From a virus (Duplodnaviria; Caudoviricetes): a DNA stretch of 64,000 nt. Of the stretch, positions 4,174-52,568 are shown in pieces. The stretch's first letter is position 1, and each line of letters starts with the position of its first letter. The DNA lies in IMG/VR virus record IMGVR_UViG_3300011989_000257, positions 224,001-288,000 of that record; one strand, given 5' to 3'. A program made the position numbers and the translations under genes. Below the pieces are notes generated by a model. It was not told the DNA's origin. It did not search any database and worked only from the letters and a program-made list of their open reading frames with translations.

Positions 4174-4544
4174 CTTTTTTTTATAAATTCTATTTTTATT
4201 GTTCTTTTTTCTTTGTCTATCGTTCGTAGTGCATCTTTATGCGGTTGAACACCAATATCATAATAATTTGGATAAAATACAAATAGCCAAGCTTTAAAAT
4301 AGTCGAAAAGATTGAACCTATTATTTTTTAGTTTGATGTCTTTGTGACCCTCAAGCCAAAATGTTATTTGAGTACCCCCAAAATTCCTAAGTGGACTCAT
4401 TTCCCAAGTTTTAAAACTATATGTACCACCCACATAGCACTTGTCGCACCAATGGCAATACTCTTTAAATTCTTTATAAAGTCCAATCTCTTTAAAAAAA
4501 CGAACAATTATTTTATACTCATCACATATATTTTCAGCACCCAT
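4170..4544 (-). CDS. Hypothetical protein, paralog family A
   Basis: RFFKEIGLY...IDKEKRTIKI. Confidence 0.7.
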   Translation of the reverse strand: MGAENICDEYKIIVRFFKEIGLYKEFKEYCHWCDKCYVGGTYSFKTWEMSPLRNFGGTQITFWLEGHKDIKLKNNRFNLFDYFKAWLFVFYPNYYDIGVQPHKDALRTIDKEKRTIKIEFIKKR

Positions 4545-4980
4545 AAGCCCTTACCTTTCTCCAAGTATATCTACCAAATGAATCTTGCAGATATAATTCT
4601 GGAAATACATACCCGTTTATGAAAAACGTGATTTTTGACCAACCATCATTCCTTGCAAATTTTATGGTGTTTCCATAATATGTATATGTCCATGTCTCAG
4701 TAAACCAATCTGGATTCCTAACAATAGCCATTACAATGTCACAACGTTTCCCATCTAAAAACTTGATTTCTTTCAGTTCCACATTGCCAACAATACAACC
4801 GTAGTCCATTTGCCAAGTCCCTAATAGTTTCTCAGCACAAAAATAATCTTGGTTGTAAGTAATTTTTGCTGTAGTGCCTCGATACTCCCTATATCCATAA
4901 TCATCCCATTCTGCATACGGACACTCACATGATGCAAAACTAATAATTAAGATAATTAATAAAACTATATATCTTCTCAT
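4534..4980 (-). CDS. Lipoprotein, lipocalin-like fold
   Basis: Lipobox (FASC) and LLGTW motif. Confidence 0.6.
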   Translation of the reverse strand: MRRYIVLLIILIISFASCECPYAEWDDYGYREYRGTTAKITYNQDYFCAEKLLGTWQMDYGCIVGNVELKEIKFLDGKRCDIVMAIVRNPDWFTETWTYTYYGNTIKFARNDGWSKITFFINGYVFPELYLQDSFGRYTWRKVRAYGC

Positions 4981-14616: not shown

Positions 14617-15548
14617 TTATTTAGCGTTTCGATATTCTCATGATACCATTTGTCGAACTCATTAAATTCATCATCAGAGAACTGTTTACGTACAGCATCG
14701 TATTTTATGTAATCACAATATTTAACCTTAACGATGATACGATTTCCACCGCTATCACAAAGAGGAATAGTAGGACGTGCAACAATACCTTCCTCAATCA
14801 TTGTTGGGTCAGCAGCATTTTCGAACTTGGTGGTGAAACCAGCACGAACCATATTCTCAATGTCACGTAATGTCATAACACCCAAGAAAGGCACTTGCTC
14901 AAGACCAAGAGTTTTACACATTGCATCACGATTCTCTTTTGGCAACCACCAACCTTGCTGACGTATATCAAACACACGGAAATCATTACCATTTTGAATA
15001 TAGCGAGAACCACATTTCTGAATACCAGTGCCGAAATACTCACCGTAGATATAGATTGGAACTTCCTCAAGTTCTGAGATATAGTCTCCACCAACTTCCA
15101 TAGTCTCAACCTTATTACCACGACAAGGGAGACTACCCTCTGGTATATTCATAACCTCTGGATAGTAGTATACAACTTTGTTATCTTCCTTCACAGGGGC
15201 AAATCTTGCACTCTCTTTGGGGAACATAGCGCAAAGCTGTGGTTTGATACGCTCACCAATCTCTTGAAGCATTTCAAACTGACCATGCTGAGAGCAAGAC
15301 TTATCTGACTTACTGCCAACTTTAATCTCTCTAGTAGATGGGAAGAAAGCAATCTTGGAGTTAGTACCGTCAATTTTGCTGTATGCTTCCCAAGGACAAT
15401 TGAAAAGGTACTCTGCCTCCTTGTTTGAAAATTCGCCAAGAATAATCTTATTCCTAAATTTCAGCCATTCTTTGTTTGGACAATCTTTAGCATCGAAAAC
15501 GTACCTTTTGTACATTGTATTAATTTTTTGATATGTCTGTAACCCCAT
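14607..15548 (-). CDS. RNA ligase, Rnl2-like
   Basis: KIDGTN (motif I), YGEYFG, FRVFDI, EEGIVARP, KVK. Confidence 0.85.
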   Translation of the reverse strand: MGLQTYQKINTMYKRYVFDAKDCPNKEWLKFRNKIILGEFSNKEAEYLFNCPWEAYSKIDGTNSKIAFFPSTREIKVGSKSDKSCSQHGQFEMLQEIGERIKPQLCAMFPKESARFAPVKEDNKVVYYYPEVMNIPEGSLPCRGNKVETMEVGGDYISELEEVPIYIYGEYFGTGIQKCGSRYIQNGNDFRVFDIRQQGWWLPKENRDAMCKTLGLEQVPFLGVMTLRDIENMVRAGFTTKFENAADPTMIEEGIVARPTIPLCDSGGNRIIVKVKYCDYIKYDAVRKQFSDDEFNEFDKWYHENIETLNKWE

Positions 15549-17505: not shown

Positions 17506-18903
17506 TTAGACCGCCAAGACTTTGATATATTCATCAACCAATTTAAGACATTCCTCCTTTGTAATCTTTGGATTCTCGAAGTATGCTTCTTTCAAATGTT
17601 CCATTACTTTACCTACTGTTGGAGTTCCCCTCTTCAAGCCAAGATGCTTCATTACATCAGTGCCATCAATTGGTAATTTAACATTCTTGGATTCTTCGAG
17701 TTCACCCAACTCTTCAATCCTATTCAGAACATCTAATGCTTGCCTTTTCTTTTTGTCGTATGTTTGAAATTGGTTATTGTAATGCATCAAATCAATTACA
17801 GTACCAATATCATCGCCACAAGCATTTATGAATTTCCTAATTTTTTTATCAGGTGGAACAATACCATCAGCATAGTTTTTGAAAAATCTATGATATTTAA
17901 TTGCATTTTCCACAGCGTTGATTACTGAATTTGGGTATTTCATAGCTTTTAGGTCACTTGCTGCTATATCAGCACTAAAAGAATCTTGCGATATGCCTCT
18001 GTTTATTTCAGTAGCAACCCTACCGACATCATGGAATAACGCAGCTAGCCTATTCTCAATATTAGGTTGTACCTTATCAAGAACTAGCATTGTATGGTCA
18101 AATGATGTTACTGCTGGATTTCTTGATTCATAAGCATTAGTTAAATCATAGATATCTGGCATTATTTTGCTCAATATTCCGCAATATAACAATTTACGGA
18201 TACCAACTGAAGCATTAGGTCCAGTAATGATTTTTGAAACCTCATCTGTTATTCTTTCTTGAGAAATAATCTTAATGCGGCTAGCATTTTTAATCATACC
18301 AAGCCATGTATTTTTCTCAATACCCCAACCATAACGGCAACTGAAACGTATTACACGAAGTATCCTCAATGGGTCATCGCAGAACGTTATATCTGGGTCA
18401 GTTGGTGTCTTAATCACTTGTTTGACTAAATCATCAATACCTTGGTTGAAGTCGTATAATTTTTTGTTACTGACATTATAATACAAGGAATTAATGGTTA
18501 GGTCTCTACGCTTAGCATCCTCTTCAATACTACCGAATACTTGTTCTGGATTTCTGCTTTCCACATGGTATTGTTCCTTGCGAGTCTGTACAAGTTCAAG
18601 GTCAATATCCGATAATTCTTTATCATTACGCAAAGTGACCTTAGCAGTTCCATATTTCGGATATATCACTGGATTAGTGTCTATTTTGTGGCTACCATCT
18701 TTTATGGCTAAGAATGCCGCAAGACCAATTCCGCCACCTTCACGTTCTACAACAATGTCGATGTCCTTGATTGGCTCATCTAAGATTGCATCCCTAACGC
18801 AGCCACCAACAAGAAATACATGATTTTCAAATGCTGTGCCTTTGATGTATTCTTGCAATCTATCGATTAATTTTATATATTTTTCTTCTTTAAATAATTC
18901 CAT
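17506..18903 (-). CDS. cca: CCA-adding tRNA nucleotidyltransferase with HD domain
   Basis: LVGGCVRD, DIDI, RRDLTINSL, DDPLRILRVIRF, ERI, FHDVG; the tRNA genes in the window lack encoded CCA. Confidence 0.92.
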   Translation of the reverse strand: MELFKEEKYIKLIDRLQEYIKGTAFENHVFLVGGCVRDAILDEPIKDIDIVVEREGGGIGLAAFLAIKDGSHKIDTNPVIYPKYGTAKVTLRNDKELSDIDLELVQTRKEQYHVESRNPEQVFGSIEEDAKRRDLTINSLYYNVSNKKLYDFNQGIDDLVKQVIKTPTDPDITFCDDPLRILRVIRFSCRYGWGIEKNTWLGMIKNASRIKIISQERITDEVSKIITGPNASVGIRKLLYCGILSKIMPDIYDLTNAYESRNPAVTSFDHTMLVLDKVQPNIENRLAALFHDVGRVATEINRGISQDSFSADIAASDLKAMKYPNSVINAVENAIKYHRFFKNYADGIVPPDKKIRKFINACGDDIGTVIDLMHYNNQFQTYDKKKRQALDVLNRIEELGELEESKNVKLPIDGTDVMKHLGLKRGTPTVGKVMEHLKEAYFENPKITKEECLKLVDEYIKVLAV

Positions 18904-47677: not shown

Positions 47678-47876
47678 AAACTAAAACTAAACATGCTTAG
47701 GTCAAACCTCAATGATGACGAACTTCAAACAAACAACGGCCTATTCTTCGTTTGCTCTGTCACCATTAATTATTTGACAGTGCAAAGATACTAAAAAAAA
47801 ATGAAATAACCAAATTTTTTTCGTTAAAAAATAAAAAAAACGTCACAAGCAAAAGCCTATGACGTTTTTATGCTGT

Positions 47877-49738: not shown

Positions 49739-49862
49739 CAGGGATAGAAGGATTCGAACCAACGACCTTTTCATTAACAGTAAAGCATCAATCTGTTCCG
49801 AAGTCGAGATTGTATATAGCTTAAATCGCAACGAAATTACTCTACCACTGAGCTATATCCCT
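49739..49862 (-). tRNA. tRNA-Asn(GTT) with a ~50 nt insertion
   Basis: Acceptor AGGGATA/TATCCCT, D arm and CTGTTAA loop separated by extra sequence. Confidence 0.6.
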
Positions 49863-49874
49863 ATTTAAACACAA

Positions 49875-50665
49875 AAAGACTGAGAACATTGTCTTATTGT
49901 TGATGCCATTTCGCAGCCCTTGGAGACTGTTGTTCACACGCTACCTTACAATAGCCGTAGACACCATGCACGGACAGTTTTGTGAAAACTACCAAACTCT
50001 TACTTGTTTAAACCTTTCGGTACAGCATCATAGATTTCAGTTCTTCGCCAAGCGCTTGCGGCTTCGCAGGATGCCTCCTGTTAACTCAGACGAGTACTTT
50101 TATTTTCTTGTTGGATTCCTTGCGAGTCCCCAACCCCTTCATATTGCAGAAGGATAAGTGCATTTTAGCTGCCAAGTGTCGCACACTTTTGCTATCATTC
50201 ATTTTTGATTCCTATATCAAAATTCTGCACTGTTATGGAAGATGAGGTGCGACTAATAGCTTCGTACCTTTTGAGTACGACCCACTAAATCACCTTCCTA
50301 TGCTGACTCACCACAAGTCAATCATTATATAGTATCATCCTTGCAGTTCTCAAACATTTCTGTCTGAGCAAGATACTATACTGAGCACAACACGCCAACT
50401 GGTGACTATTGCATCATGCTCCATATGGTAATCTGTTATATCACTATTCACCCAAAGATTCCTCACCCTTGAGAGCTTACACCTATGGTATTACCCACAA
50501 TGTAAACCGTACCATATGCTTTTCAGTGAAATACTTGAAGTTTCCCCCAAATATCTGCAACGCTTAACAGCTAATATGCGTCACATTTAATCCCATCACT
50601 GGTTTATCCTTATGGCTACGAAAGCTAGCCAAACCCCTCATTTTCAGCCGAAGCCTACAATGTTG
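49875..50665 (-). ncRNA. GOLLD-like giant structured RNA (~800 nt)
   Basis: Long ORF-free, GC-richer, hairpin-rich region within a phage tRNA array; size and context fit GOLLD; not confirmed by covariance model. Confidence 0.55.
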
Positions 50666-50671
50666 GAATTG

Positions 50672-50783
50672 TTGGTAAGAAGAGATTTGCACTCTTGAAG
50701 ACTCCGAAGAGTCACATCAAGCACGAACTTGATGCCCATTTGTCTACATCAGTCTCTCGACTGTTCTCCTCTGGTACTTACCA
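50672..50783 (-). ncRNA. tRNA-like RNA with expanded D region, copy 1
   Basis: Covarying stems with copy 2. Confidence 0.75.
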
Positions 50784-50989
50784 AAAGGTGGTTTTTATAC
50801 TTGTCCACCACAAGGTGTATTGTGTAGTATTGTAAAGGCTGATTCATTTTTCAGAGCCAATTTAATGGTAAAGGACATCTGCTATATTTCATACAGTTGT
50901 ATGTTTGTCGCAACCTCACTTTCCTCGCCAACCTTTACTGCCGATTGCACCTGAGCATTTATACTACATTAACGCTTAACTGATACTCG

Positions 50990-51122
50990 TTGGTGAAGGT
51001 GAATTTGCATCACCGAAGACTCCGAAGAGCCACATTACTCACGAAAGTAATGCCCATTTGTCTACACCTATCATTTCATAAGCCACAACCGACTCTGATA
51101 GTTTCTCCTCTGGTATTCACCA
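50990..51122 (-). ncRNA. tRNA-like RNA with expanded D region, copy 2
   Basis: Covarying stems with copy 1. Confidence 0.75.
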
Positions 51123-51165
51123 AAAGGTGGTTTTTCTGTTTGTCCACCACAAACAATTAATTATG

Positions 51166-51246
51166 TTGCGGAAGCAGGATTTGCACCTACGCACCTTACG
51201 GACTGGCTTATGAGACCAGTGAATTTGACTACTCTTCCATTCCGCT
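51166..51246 (-). tRNA. tRNA-Met(CAT) with enlarged variable arm
   Basis: CTGGT-CTCATAA-GCCAG; CCGTAAGG variable hairpin. Confidence 0.7.
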
Positions 51247-51260
51247 ATGTTTTAAAAATC

Positions 51261-51328
51261 GGAAACTCTTTTCTAGAATTATTGATTAAAAGTCAAGTCC
51301 TATAAAATTACATTTGCTGTAAGTTTCC
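51261..51328 (-). ncRNA. ACAGCAA-family RNA carrying a Lys(TTT) anticodon stem-loop
   Basis: GGAAACT/AGTTTCC stem, ACAGCAA, TTGA-CTTTTAA-TCAA. Confidence 0.7.
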
Positions 51329-51410
51329 TTAACGCCTATGAAAAAAGATAAATCACTTTTTCTTTTTGACAGTGCAAAGATATAGAAAAAATTTCTAATT
51401 TCCAAATTTT

Positions 51411-52236: not shown

Positions 52237-52262
52237 AACTATTTAATTTTCAAATATTTACG

Positions 52263-52568
52263 TGGACCTGGTGGGATTCGAACCCACGTCCAAACTACCA
52301 TCCCATAAGAGATTATACAAGCTTAAAAATTGGGGGATGACTGAATCAACCCTCTCCACCACCTCATTTTGAGAAAACGAGGAAAACAAAGTTACTAGGA
52401 TGTTCTGTTCCTAAGAGCCTAGTCTCTCGGCTCACGCTTAGGCTGCGATAGCCATTGCATAAGCAGGAGAATCGATGTTCTCGCCGTTTATATTTTTTCG
52501 CTATTTCTAGTGTATGCCCACTGCTTGTCTCTTACCAAATGCATAGCTGTCTATTCCATTTCAAGCCC
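52263..52568 (-). ncRNA. ssrA: tmRNA, tag peptide (A)GENIDSPAYAMAIAA
   Basis: GGGCTTG/CAGGTCC-A acceptor with G3:U70, T arm, resume context ATAAAC-GGC, tag ORF 52438-52485 ending AA-stop. Confidence 0.92.

What the first reader, a model, noticed from the sequence alone, without database searches (positions are those of the whole stretch)
50672..51152. Two covarying copies of a tRNA-like RNA with enlarged D domain and a 7-bp/6-nt TTCGTG arm
Seen: the acceptor (TGGTAAG/CTTACCA vs TGGTGAA/TTCACCA), T stem (AAGAG/CTCTT vs GGTGA/TCACC) and anticodon-position stem (CATCAAG/CTTGATG vs CATTACT/AGTAATG) all covary. The loops TTCGTG and TGCAAAT, the CTCTTCGGAGTC variable arm and the D-region segments TACCAGAGGAGAA and TGTAGACAAATGGG are invariant, with a variable-length hairpin inserted between the last two. 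Each copy is preceded by the same GTGGTGGACAA...AAAAACCACC hairpin. Inference: a structured RNA class under strong selection that is not a standard decoder; it lies immediately upstream of the giant RNA and could be its partner.
Basis: seen in the sequence. Interest (0 to 1): 0.75.

Follow-up and report, generated by a model that had tools for sequence, protein, structure and literature searches.

The report
Anticodon-less tRNA look-alikes beside GOLLD RNA
A giant rumen phage carries several copies of a previously uncatalogued small RNA that keeps the whole shape and processing signals of a transfer RNA but has no anticodon, and that always sits next to the cage-forming GOLLD RNA, so it is a lead to what that unexplained RNA works with.

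Summary
The two copies (minus strand, 50671-50786 and 50989-51125) belong to a family I call R1.

- **Size of the family:** more than 150 distinct members in rumen and gut phage contigs, plus a third copy elsewhere in this 412-kb phage.
- **Structure:** all six helices covary. 98.7% of cells are paired, 26 of 33 pairs show compensatory change, and 0 of 500 shuffles reach the observed values.
- **Databases:** Rfam 15, its tRNA model and ARAGORN do not recognise it.
- **Fold:** R1 is a class-II tRNA body with U8, A14, R15, A21, G26 and C48 in place. A D-loop/T-loop contact (18:55) covaries, A with G in 140 members and G with U in 16. A73 and C74 match every tRNA gene of this phage.
- **Departures from tRNA:** a hairpin, mostly GNRA-capped, is inserted in the D loop. 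The anticodon loop is replaced by a 7-bp stem capped with UUCGUG or GGUAA, so R1 cannot decode.
- **Context:** R1 abuts GOLLD in 10 of 10 GOLLD loci examined, once on the 3' side. It also occurs in tandem arrays and in stand-alone operons.

Best reading (inferred, about 0.4): a "dummy tRNA" cut out by tRNA-maturation enzymes, which frees GOLLD and then persists as a stable tRNA mimic acting with GOLLD or a tRNA-binding partner. Expression could not be tested.

The parts
50671..50786 (-). R1 copy 1 as matched by the covariance model. The predicted mature RNA runs from U1 at 50783 to A73 at 50672, with C74 at 50671. GOLLD conservation starts at 50670.
   Evidence: Covariance-model hit of 136.5 bits, E 5e-38; cloverleaf fold; flanks identical in pattern to the phage's tRNA genes.
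50989..51125 (-). R1 copy 2. U1 is at 51122, A73 at 50990 and C74 at 50989. Its D-loop insert is longer (35 nt).
   Evidence: Covariance-model hit of 113.2 bits, E 5e-31; fold.
50787..50811 (-). Leader hairpin of copy 1: a GGUGG/CCACC stem with an A-rich 13-nt loop starting ACAA, ending 3 nt (UUU) before U1.
   Evidence: Present before 65 of 179 distinct R1 contexts. The spacer is UUU in 60 of those 65. The fifth stem pair is G:C in 62, U:A in 2 and A:U in 1; fold.
51126..51150 (-). Leader hairpin of copy 2.
50750..50763 (-). Hairpin inserted in the D loop of copy 1: 5 bp with a GAGA loop.
   Evidence: Four of its five pairs covary. Most loops across the family are GNRA (GCAA, GAAA, GUAA).
50744..50745 (-). 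A18 and G19 equivalents of copy 1 (the 'AG' in UGUAGAC), which contact G55 and C56 of the T loop.
   Evidence: A at this position occurs with T-loop G55 in 140 members and G with U55 in 16, with one exception. The neighbouring real tRNA at 51165-51246 has the same A18/G55 combination.
50715..50734 (-). Anticodon-position arm of copy 1: 7 bp capped by UUCGUG (50722-50727). It contains no anticodon.
   Evidence: All 7 pairs covary. The loop is UUCGUG in 97 of 132 members and GGUAA-type in about 25.
50700..50713 (-). Long variable arm of copy 1: 5 bp with a UUCG loop (class-II tRNA feature).
50680..50696 (-). T arm of copy 1: 5 bp with loop UGCAAAU.
   Evidence: All 5 pairs covary. The loop is UGCAAAU in 107 members and UUCAAAU in 15.
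50812..50988 (-). Conserved structured spacer RNA of about 160-177 nt between the two copies. It is a separate element, not part of R1.
   Evidence: Conserved in 6 loci; 4 pairs show compensatory changes in the consensus fold.
49877..50670 (-). GOLLD RNA directly 3' of copy 1. The 3' domain at 49877-50298 matches RF02032; the 5' domain runs up to 50670.
   Evidence: RF02032 hit of 74.8 bits, E 7.6e-19, below Rfam's cut-off; about 790-880 nt conserved at 69-83% identity in 9 other loci.
51373..51382 (-). Nearest upstream copy of the phage's recurrent promoter-like motif TATCTTTGCA. The next one on this strand is at 47781-47790.
   Evidence: 32 matches in the window against 9.6 expected. The same motif precedes the stand-alone R1 operons. 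That it acts as a promoter is an inference.

Best explanation
R1 is a new family of non-decoding 'dummy tRNAs' made by large phages of rumen and gut Bacteroidota.

Shown by the data:
- It is a real RNA. Its G-U pairs exist only on the strand that also carries the tRNA genes.
- It has a complete class-II tRNA architecture: a 7-bp acceptor stem, U8, a 3-bp D stem, A14, R15, an 18:55 and 19:56 elbow, A21, G26, a long variable arm, C48 and a T arm.
- It has the same gene flanks as every tRNA of this phage: U at -1, discriminator A73, then C74, with no encoded CCA.
- Two things differ from a tRNA. A stable hairpin, mostly GNRA-capped, is inserted in the D loop. The anticodon stem-loop is replaced by a 7-bp helix capped with UUCGUG or GGUAA.

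Inferred:
- R1 is transcribed inside a long RNA operon in the order promoter motif, Y-like RNA, tRNA-Met, R1, spacer RNA, R1, GOLLD, tRNA-like.
- It is cut out by RNase P at U1 and by the tRNA 3'-end pathway after A73/C74.
- It is completed with CCA by the phage's own CCA-adding-type enzyme.
- These cuts also create the end of the adjacent GOLLD RNA.
- Because R1 cannot read a codon, the phage can make it, and GOLLD, in quantity without disturbing the tRNA pool.
- The released R1 then persists as a very stable L-shaped RNA. It works stoichiometrically with a partner that recognises tRNA shape plus the inserted hairpin, most likely the GOLLD cage (as cargo or adaptor).
For: - **Family and fold:**
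- **Tertiary 18:55 covariation:**. The same A18/G55 pair occurs in the neighbouring genuine tRNA.
- **Shared processing signals:** all 25 tRNA and tRNA-like genes listed in the window have T at -1 and a discriminator followed by C. In R1, C74 is present in 131 of 132 members and U at -1 in 122 of 132.
- **tRNA-like packing:** R1 copies sit 2-4 nt apart in arrays of up to five, or directly after real tRNAs.
- **CCA-adding enzyme:** the phage encodes a PF01743 enzyme (90.3 bits) at window 18412-18819.
- **One transcription unit:** no promoter motif or terminator lies between 51373 and the end of GOLLD on the minus strand.
- **Linkage to GOLLD:** GOLLD conservation begins 1-8 nt after C74 in most of the 10 loci, and 33-45 nt after it in four. 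All 5 complete or near-complete relatives have one GOLLD with an R1 array beside it. In a divergent 229-kb phage, R1 lies 12 nt 3' of GOLLD instead.
- **The other flank:** the other side of GOLLD in this window is also an atypical tRNA-like gene, with a 54-nt insert in the anticodon arm.
- **Literature:** GOLLD forms a 14-mer cage. tRNAs are sometimes linked to it, and the first GOLLD was found downstream of a Met-tRNA (PMC12286853).
Against:
- Punctuation alone does not explain tandem arrays in which every copy stays intact, or stand-alone operons without GOLLD.
- No base complementarity between R1's conserved single-stranded segments and GOLLD was found.
- The GOLLD linkage rests on about two independent arrangements, because most loci are syntenic relatives.
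- The leader hairpin 3 nt upstream of the predicted RNase P site is unexplained and might hinder cleavage.
Confidence: 0.4

Rival explanations
1. Decoy or competitive inhibitor. Mature CCA-ended R1 soaks up a host enzyme that recognises the tRNA acceptor end, elbow or long variable arm rather than the anticodon. Candidates are defence toxins that modify or cut tRNA 3' ends, or a tRNA-processing or modifying enzyme. This would protect the phage's many real tRNAs.
For: - R1 keeps every anticodon-independent tRNA feature and lacks the anticodon loop that anticodon nucleases cut.
- It is multi-copy, with paralog-specific acceptor stems, as expected for a stoichiometric binder.
- The phage invests heavily in tRNAs, a tmRNA and other tRNA-shaped RNAs (earlier notes).
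- G55 in place of U55 would prevent the usual pseudouridine at position 55.
Against: - No candidate target was identified.
- Neighbouring genes gave no hint.
- Enzymes turn over, so a decoy must bind tightly.
- It does not explain the constant adjacency to GOLLD.
Confidence: 0.2
2. Non-ribosomal aminoacyl carrier. R1 is charged by a synthetase that ignores the anticodon; the long variable arm plus A73 resembles Leu-type, or possibly Ser-type, identity. It would then donate the amino acid to a transferase, or sequester the synthetase or EF-Tu.
For: - R1 has a class-II body with G15:C48, a C11:G24 pair in most members, an invariant A73 and a CCA-ready end.
- From established knowledge, LeuRS and SerRS do not read the anticodon.
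- Paralog-specific acceptor stems resemble isoacceptor families.
Against: - No synthetase of families PF00587 or PF00133 is encoded by the phage.
- No aminoacyl-tRNA-dependent transferase was seen near R1.
- U1:A72 and the D-loop insert are untested for any synthetase.
- The idea rests purely on analogy.
Confidence: 0.1
3. Pure processing punctuation. R1 has no function after excision. It exists only to recruit RNase P and the 3' tRNA nuclease so that GOLLD and other neighbouring RNAs get defined ends, as mascRNA does for MALAT1.
For: - R1 abuts GOLLD on either side in different phages.
- It lies inside an operon with no internal promoter motif.
- Nearly all invariant single-stranded positions are the canonical tRNA core needed for the L shape.
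Against: - Tandem arrays of up to five intact copies with nothing between them to release.
- Operons consisting only of two hairpin-R1 units.
- The sequence-conserved UUCGUG loop and insert flanks are not needed by RNase P.
Confidence: 0.12
4. RNA subunit of a Ro60/Y-RNA-type or other phage ribonucleoprotein. The tRNA-like body and inserted hairpin would be the protein-binding platform.
For:
- In other contigs R1 is often followed directly by an RNA that starts with the GGAAAC..ACAGCAA 'handle'.
- The 8-mer GURGACAA recurs in both the D loop and the leader hairpin, which could be a protein site.
Against: - R1 has free tRNA-type ends, not the closed terminal stem with a bulged helix that binds Ro60.
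- There is no Rfam Y-RNA match.
- I did not verify the Ro60 claim.
Confidence: 0.06
5. A real decoding tRNA with an unusual or intron-bearing anticodon arm.
For: Overall cloverleaf shape, location in a tRNA array, and shared flanks.
Against: - The loop at the anticodon position is 6 or 5 nt and sequence-fixed (UUCGUG or GGUAA) whatever the paralog. It has no U33-NNN-R37 pattern, and the closing pairs covary up to the loop.
- ARAGORN and RF00005 reject it.
Confidence: 0.02

Closest known systems
Class-II (long-variable-arm) tRNAs, Rfam RF00005
   Same: R1 shares the 7-bp acceptor stem, U8, the D stem, A14, R15, the 18:55 and 19:56 elbow, A21, G26, a 5-bp variable arm, C48, a 5-bp T arm with a 7-nt loop, a discriminator and the phage-typical C74. 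It lies in tRNA arrays on the same strand. The adjacent tRNA-Met(CAU) shares its odd T loop UGCAAAU and A18.
   Different: R1 has no anticodon loop; instead it has a 7-bp stem with a fixed 5-6-nt cap. A 14-35-nt hairpin is inserted in the D loop. RF00005 gives no hit even at E 10, and ARAGORN makes no call.
mascRNA / MEN-beta tRNA-like elements at the ends of MALAT1 and NEAT1 (Rfam RF01684; from my own knowledge)
   Same: These are non-decoding tRNA-shaped modules fused to a long structured non-coding RNA. RNase P and RNase Z cleavage of them defines the long RNA's end and releases a small CCA-ended RNA.
   Different: They are eukaryotic, about 60 nt, single-copy and always at the 3' end. R1 is from phages, is 112-135 nt with a class-II body, is usually 5' of GOLLD, and also occurs in arrays and in stand-alone operons. 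There is no sequence relation and no Rfam match.
tRNAs linked to GOLLD (PMC12286853: Met-tRNA upstream of GOLLD env-38; tRNAs in the GOLLD linker)
   Same: A tRNA-shaped unit is physically joined to GOLLD. Here a tRNA-Met(CAU) also precedes the block.
   Different: Those are described as ordinary tRNAs. R1 is a dedicated non-decoder with its own conserved insert, and it lies at the boundary of GOLLD, not in its linker.
tRNA-like domains of tmRNA (RF00023) and of bacterial YrlA Y RNAs
   Same: Acceptor and T-arm mimicry without an anticodon. Short R1 variants get weak tmRNA hits (19 bits, E 6e-4).
   Different: tmRNA has a tag reading frame and pseudoknots, and the true tmRNA of this phage is at 52260-52568. 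YrlA closes its ends into a Ro60-binding stem. R1 has neither feature.
Phage T4 'species 1' and 'species 2' stable RNAs in the tRNA gene cluster (from memory, not checked here)
   Same: Small stable phage RNAs of unknown function, encoded among the tRNA genes and matured with them.
   Different: No sequence or structure comparison was made here. This is a lead only.

Membership tests
tRNA (canonical decoder, RF00005) | A 7-bp acceptor stem with a discriminator and gene flanks like the genome's other tRNAs. | tested here: met
   Five of the seven stem pairs (2-72, 4-69, 5-68, 6-67 and 7-66) show compensatory changes. U is at -1 and A73 and C74 are nearly invariant, the same pattern as in the 25 tRNA and tRNA-like genes of the window.
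tRNA (canonical decoder, RF00005) | A T arm of 5 bp with a 7-nt loop carrying U54, C56 and A58. | tested here: met
   The loop is UGCAAAU in 107 members, UUCAAAU in 15 and CGCAAAU in 5. All 5 pairs covary.
tRNA (canonical decoder, RF00005) | A tertiary core (U8, A14, R15-Y48, 18:55, 19:56, A21, 26) that gives the L shape. | tested here: met
   These positions are invariant in the consensus. The 18:55 pair covaries, A:G in 140 members and G:U in 16, with 1 exception. The three-dimensional fold itself was not determined.
tRNA (canonical decoder, RF00005) | A 5-bp anticodon stem with a 7-nt loop (U33, anticodon, purine 37). | tested here: not met
   R1 has a 7-bp stem with loop UUCGUG (97 of 132) or a GGUAA-type loop (about 25 of 132). 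None of the 132 distinct aligned members has a 7-nt loop.
tRNA (canonical decoder, RF00005) | Recognised by tRNA detectors. | tested here: not met
   ARAGORN makes no call. RF00005 gives no hit at the gathering score or at E up to 10.
tmRNA (RF00023) | A tRNA-like domain joined to a tag-peptide reading frame and pseudoknots. | tested here: not met
   R1 is 112-135 nt with no conserved reading frame; in-frame stops differ between copies on inspection. The real tmRNA lies at 52260-52568. Only weak 19-bit hits appear on short variants.
Y RNA / YrlA (Ro60-binding) | The 5' and 3' ends pair into a Ro60-binding stem with a conserved bulged helix. | tested here: not met
   The ends form a tRNA acceptor stem with a free A73-C74. 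No Rfam Y-RNA hit was found. Binding to Ro60 cannot be tested with these tools.
GOLLD (RF02032), i.e. R1 as a domain of GOLLD | Covered by the GOLLD model and found only as part of GOLLD. | tested here: not met
   The RF02032 match ends at 50298, and BLAST conservation of GOLLD starts after R1. R1 also occurs in operons with their own promoter motif and terminator and no GOLLD.
mascRNA-type tRNA-like processing element | Cleaved by RNase P and RNase Z so as to define the end of the adjoining long RNA. | not testable with these tools
   Position and flanks fit, but no read-end data were available.

The most novel reading that the evidence does not exclude
R1 is the dedicated partner of the GOLLD nanocage. 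It would be a CCA-ended, anticodon-less tRNA mimic whose inserted GNRA hairpin and capped anticodon arm dock it into or onto the 14-mer cage as cargo or adaptor. That would give GOLLD its first identified ligand and a direct link to tRNA biology.
Probability: 0.2. Interest if true: 0.85.

Novelty: new variant of a known kind. Interest (0 to 1): 0.62.

Why it matters
GOLLD and ROOL are among the largest unexplained bacterial and phage RNAs. Cryo-EM showed that they form empty cages, and their constant placement near tRNA genes is the main functional clue.

This work adds three things:
- **A testable candidate partner.** A specific, abundant, strongly conserved, non-decoding tRNA mimic abuts GOLLD in every locus examined. 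That makes the cargo/partner and processing questions directly testable with a defined pair of RNAs.
- **A new type of tRNA-derived RNA.** R1 keeps the whole tertiary core and maturation signals while replacing the anticodon loop and expanding the D loop.
- **A covariance-model-ready alignment.** More than 130 distinct sequences are aligned for a family absent from Rfam.

It also shows that these megaphages encode a shared tRNA-end signal (N73-C74, no CCA) together with their own CCA-adding-type enzyme.

Tried and rejected
- **Rfam search:** at the gathering score and at E up to 10, the only hit over the feature was a spurious cspA match (E 0.46).
- **Pairing with GOLLD:** a search for sites in GOLLD and the RNA island complementary to R1's conserved D-loop segments and AC loop found none.
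- **Shine-Dalgarno or start-stop mini-ORF reading of AGGAG...AUG-UAG:** rejected.
  - The downstream frame is not conserved, and stops fall at different codons.
  - UAG alternates with UGG.
  - The A/G there covaries with the T loop, so these nucleotides are positions 14-19 of a tRNA D loop.
- **Sarcin-ricin-loop mimicry (UACGAGAGGA):** rejected. The C/G in that string is base-paired in the D stem and covaries (C:G, G:C, U:A).
- **Mimicry of the 16S rRNA 3' end (CACCUCCUU):** only 16 of 157 members carry it.
- **Leader hairpin as an intrinsic terminator or sigma-70 promoter:** not supported.
  - It has a 5-bp stem with a 13-15-nt loop.
  - The minus-strand scan does not call it as a terminator.
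  - It has no conserved -10 element.
- **Genome-contig scan:** most of the 120 pattern hits were chance. Only two small gut MAG contigs (horse faeces, chicken) passed the covariance model.
- **Neighbouring ORFs in Pfam:** nothing tRNA-related beyond a cytidylyltransferase-like protein and weak hits.
- **Weak covariance-model hit at 14826-14954:** it shows no tRNA-like fold.
Full report
**1. What is there**

All RNA genes in this part of the window lie on the minus strand: 23 tRNAs and a tmRNA by ARAGORN, and 22 tRNA hits by Rfam. The window is bases 224001-288000 of a 412,514-bp IMG/VR phage record.

Read on the minus strand, the finding holds two copies of one element.
- Copy 1 spans 50671-50786 and copy 2 spans 50989-51125.
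- Each is preceded, 3 nt upstream, by a GUGGUGGACAA...AAAAACCACC hairpin (50787-50811 and 51126-51150).
- A 177-nt spacer separates the two copies.

RNAfold gives both copies the same cloverleaf: an acceptor stem, a 3-bp D stem enclosing a large loop with an internal hairpin, a 7-9-bp arm at the anticodon position capped by UUCGUG, a 5-bp variable arm with a UUCG loop, and a 5-bp T arm with loop UGCAAAU.

**2. It is a large, covarying family that no database knows**

- An exact search for the 17-mer UGUAGACAAAUGGGCAU found 26 viral loci.
- A covariance model (R1) scores family members 60-140 bits. The real tRNAs of this window and its close relatives score 14-34 bits, and unexamined short hits (probably class-II tRNAs) elsewhere reach about 50 bits.
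- On 132 distinct sequences, 98.7% of cells form standard pairs and 26 of 33 pairs show changes on both sides. No shuffle out of 500 reaches the observed paired fraction or covariation score, and sliding the partner by 1-3 columns drops pairing to 36-44%. The 36-sequence set gave the same picture.
- Many pairs use G-U or U-G, which would be mismatches on the other strand. The structure therefore belongs to an RNA transcribed from the tRNA strand.
- Rfam 15 has no match at the gathering score or at E up to 10. RF00005 and ARAGORN do not call it.
- Full-text searches found no description of it.

**3. Anatomy: a complete class-II tRNA body without an anticodon**

The consensus has the following invariant features:
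- U at -1 and a 7-bp acceptor stem, mostly U1:A72, G2:C71 and R3:Y70;
- U8 and A9;
- a D stem of the form CNA/UNG, whose middle pair is C:G in 91 members and G:C in 41, with U:A in a divergent member;
- GAGGAGAAC, then the hairpin, then (A/G)UGU-RG-ACAA;
- G26;
- a 7-bp arm, then U44, then a 5-bp variable arm, then UUC(48);
- the T arm, A73 and C74.

The purine in UGU-R-GAC covaries with the second T-loop base. A goes with G in 140 members and G with U in 16, with one exception (Fisher p = 6e-21). The number of independent changes behind this is probably small.
- That is the 18:55 tertiary pair of tRNA. The following invariant G is G19, opposite the invariant C56.
- The neighbouring genuine tRNA-Met(CAU) at 51165-51246 has the same unusual T loop UGCAAAU, and its D loop reads AG where tRNAs normally have GG.
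- The 'invariant D-region segments' are therefore largely the canonical tRNA core (A14, R15, 18, 19, A21).
- The truly new part is a hairpin inserted between positions 15 and 18. It has 5-6 bp and a mostly GNRA loop; its stem covaries and its length varies from 14 to about 35 nt.

At the anticodon position the stem has 7 bp, and all seven pairs covary. The cap is UUCGUG in 97 of 132 members and a GGUAA-type pentaloop in about 25. None of the 132 distinct aligned members has a 7-nt loop, so R1 cannot decode.

**4. It carries the phage's own tRNA maturation signals**

- All 25 tRNA and tRNA-like genes listed in the window have T at -1. All have a discriminator followed by C and then mostly A or T, and none encodes CCA.
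- R1 has the same signature: A73 then C74 in 131 of 132 members.
- In arrays, R1 copies are spaced 2-4 nt apart or follow real tRNAs directly.
- The phage encodes a CCA-adding-type nucleotidyltransferase (PF01743, 90.3 bits) at window 18412-18819. It encodes no class-I or class-II synthetase of families PF00133 or PF00587.
- The phage's recurrent promoter-like motif TATCTTTGCA occurs 32 times against 9.6 expected. On the minus strand it lies at 51373-51382 and next at 47781-47790, with no minus-strand terminator-like site between.
- Inference: one transcript carries a Y-like RNA, tRNA-Met, hairpin-R1, spacer RNA, hairpin-R1, GOLLD and a further tRNA-like gene. R1 is excised like a tRNA and receives CCA.

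**5. Context**

- The 'giant RNA' is a GOLLD. RF02032 matches 49877-50298 at 74.8 bits (E 7.6e-19, below the curated 150 bits). About 790-880 nt, starting within 1-8 nt (33-45 nt in four loci) of C74 of R1 and running to 49877, are conserved at 69-83% identity in nine other loci.
- Five complete or near-complete relatives (241-413 kb) each have one GOLLD with 1-5 R1 copies beside it. Four of them have one further R1 copy about 100 kb away.
- This genome's third copy is at G000:C1:168087-168204.
- In a divergent 229-kb phage, R1 (80 bits, acceptor GGAAGGA) lies 12 nt 3' of GOLLD instead.
- The distant copy sits in a stand-alone operon: the promoter motif, a conserved leader of about 150 nt, the hairpin, R1, optionally a second kind of tRNA-like RNA that also ends in A-A-C, and a strong terminator.
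- Another phage has an operon made only of two hairpin-R1 units.
- Divergent members occur on small contigs binned with horse-faeces and chicken-gut MAGs. These include shorter variants that lack the inserted hairpin but keep the UUCGUG arm and the A73-C74 end.
- The leader hairpin precedes 65 of 179 distinct contexts, almost always with a UUU spacer. Its fifth pair shows G:C, U:A and A:U. Its role is unexplained.

**6. Interpretation**

Secure:
- R1 is a real, strongly selected, tRNA-derived RNA that keeps the L-shape core and cannot decode.

Likely (about 0.7):
- R1 is matured by RNase P, a 3' tRNA nuclease and CCA addition.

Function is inferred only.
- Pure punctuation, as with mascRNA for MALAT1, fits the position on either flank of GOLLD and the fact that GOLLD's other flank here is also an atypical tRNA-like gene (49739-49862).
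- It does not fit tandem arrays of intact copies or the stand-alone operons. The mature RNA itself therefore seems to be needed, and in quantity.
- The published GOLLD work shows a 14-mer cage. Its authors propose tRNAs as possible contents, note tRNAs in the GOLLD linker, and note a Met-tRNA upstream of the first GOLLD (PMC12286853).
- On that basis I rank 'processing module plus GOLLD-linked stable tRNA mimic' first, at 0.4 for the package and about 0.2 for physical partnership.
- The rivals follow in this order: a decoy for tRNA-end- or elbow-binding host enzymes (0.2), punctuation only (0.12), an aminoacyl carrier (0.1), a Ro60/Y-type particle (0.06) and a true decoder (0.02).

**7. Novelty**

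tRNA-like non-decoders are a known kind; examples are the tRNA-like domains of tmRNA and YrlA, mascRNA, and viral tRNA-like structures. R1 matches none of their defining features other than tRNA shape, and it is absent from Rfam 15.

I rate it a new variant of a known kind. Its added value is that it is the most specific sequence-level companion of GOLLD found so far in these phages.

The same stretch was noted earlier in this scan from an overlapping window. That follow-up was withheld, so this report is independent.

Noticed in passing
window 49877-50670 (-): GOLLD RNA of about 790 nt. The Rfam RF02032 match is only 74.8 bits (cut-off 150), as in all relatives (62-86 bits), so this rumen-phage GOLLD clade is missed at Rfam's gathering threshold.
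   Followed up: partly
window 49739-49862 (-): A tRNA-like gene 14 nt 3' of GOLLD with a 54-nt insertion in the anticodon arm (RF00005, 42.9 bits). The insertion is too short for a group I intron, so this is possibly another non-decoding tRNA mimic. A 116-nt tRNA with an insertion flanks GOLLD in L058 as well.
   Followed up: partly
window 50812-50988 (-): A conserved structured RNA of about 160-177 nt between the two R1 copies. It is closed by UGUAGUAU/AUACUACA and GUAAAGG/CCUUUAC helices, with 4 compensatory pairs across 5 loci. It has no Rfam match.
   Followed up: partly
window 51165-51246 (-): tRNA-Met(CAU) with a long variable arm, an A1-A72 mismatch, T loop UGCAAAU (G55) and a D loop with A18 in place of G18. 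It is syntenic upstream of the R1/GOLLD block in relatives and is the real tRNA of this window most similar to R1 (26 bits here; its apparent counterparts in relatives score 32-34).
   Followed up: partly
window 42499-63302 (-), all tRNA genes; window 18412-18819 (-): Every tRNA gene has T at -1 and a discriminator followed by C, with no encoded CCA. The phage encodes its own CCA-adding-type enzyme (PF01743, in an open frame of 475 aa).
   Followed up: partly
G000:C1:168087-168204 (locus L033:1437-1554, -) and flanks: The third R1 copy lies in a stand-alone RNA operon: the promoter motif, a conserved leader of about 150 nt closed by UAAGUAAGG/CCUUACUUA, the hairpin, R1, a second 'type 2' tRNA-like RNA (acceptor UUAGUAAG/CUUACCAA plus C, T loop UUCGAUU, variable middle) and a strong terminator. 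ARAGORN calls nothing there.
   Followed up: partly
L189, L237, L245, L285, L295, L306, L058 (downstream of R1): In many contigs R1 is followed within a few nt by an RNA starting GGAAAC..ACAGCAA. This is the same 'handle' motif that another first-stage note describes for Y-RNA-like RNAs of this phage (one lies at 51261-51328, just upstream of the tRNA-Met).
   Followed up: no
L108:2372-2579, 4213-4315, 4567-4671 (-): Short R1 variants (102-105 nt) on a horse-faeces contig lack the inserted D-loop hairpin and the UGUAGACAA block. They keep AGGAG, the UUCGUG arm, a canonical UUCAAUU T loop and the A73-C74 end, so they may be an ancestral or reduced form.
   Followed up: partly
R1 family, acceptor stems: The 5' strand of the acceptor stem is strongly purine-rich (6 of 7 purines in 89 of 157 members; UGGAAGA, UGAAGGA, UGGUAGA and UGAGAGA dominate). 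The 3' strand is correspondingly pyrimidine-rich. This is unexplained.
   Followed up: partly
L010:11284-11569, L021, L029 (between R1 and GOLLD): In some relatives an extra domain of about 280 nt lies between R1 and the GOLLD homology. Its start contains UUUCGUG, GUAGACAA and CGGUAAA, the same short motifs as R1's loops and D region.
   Followed up: no
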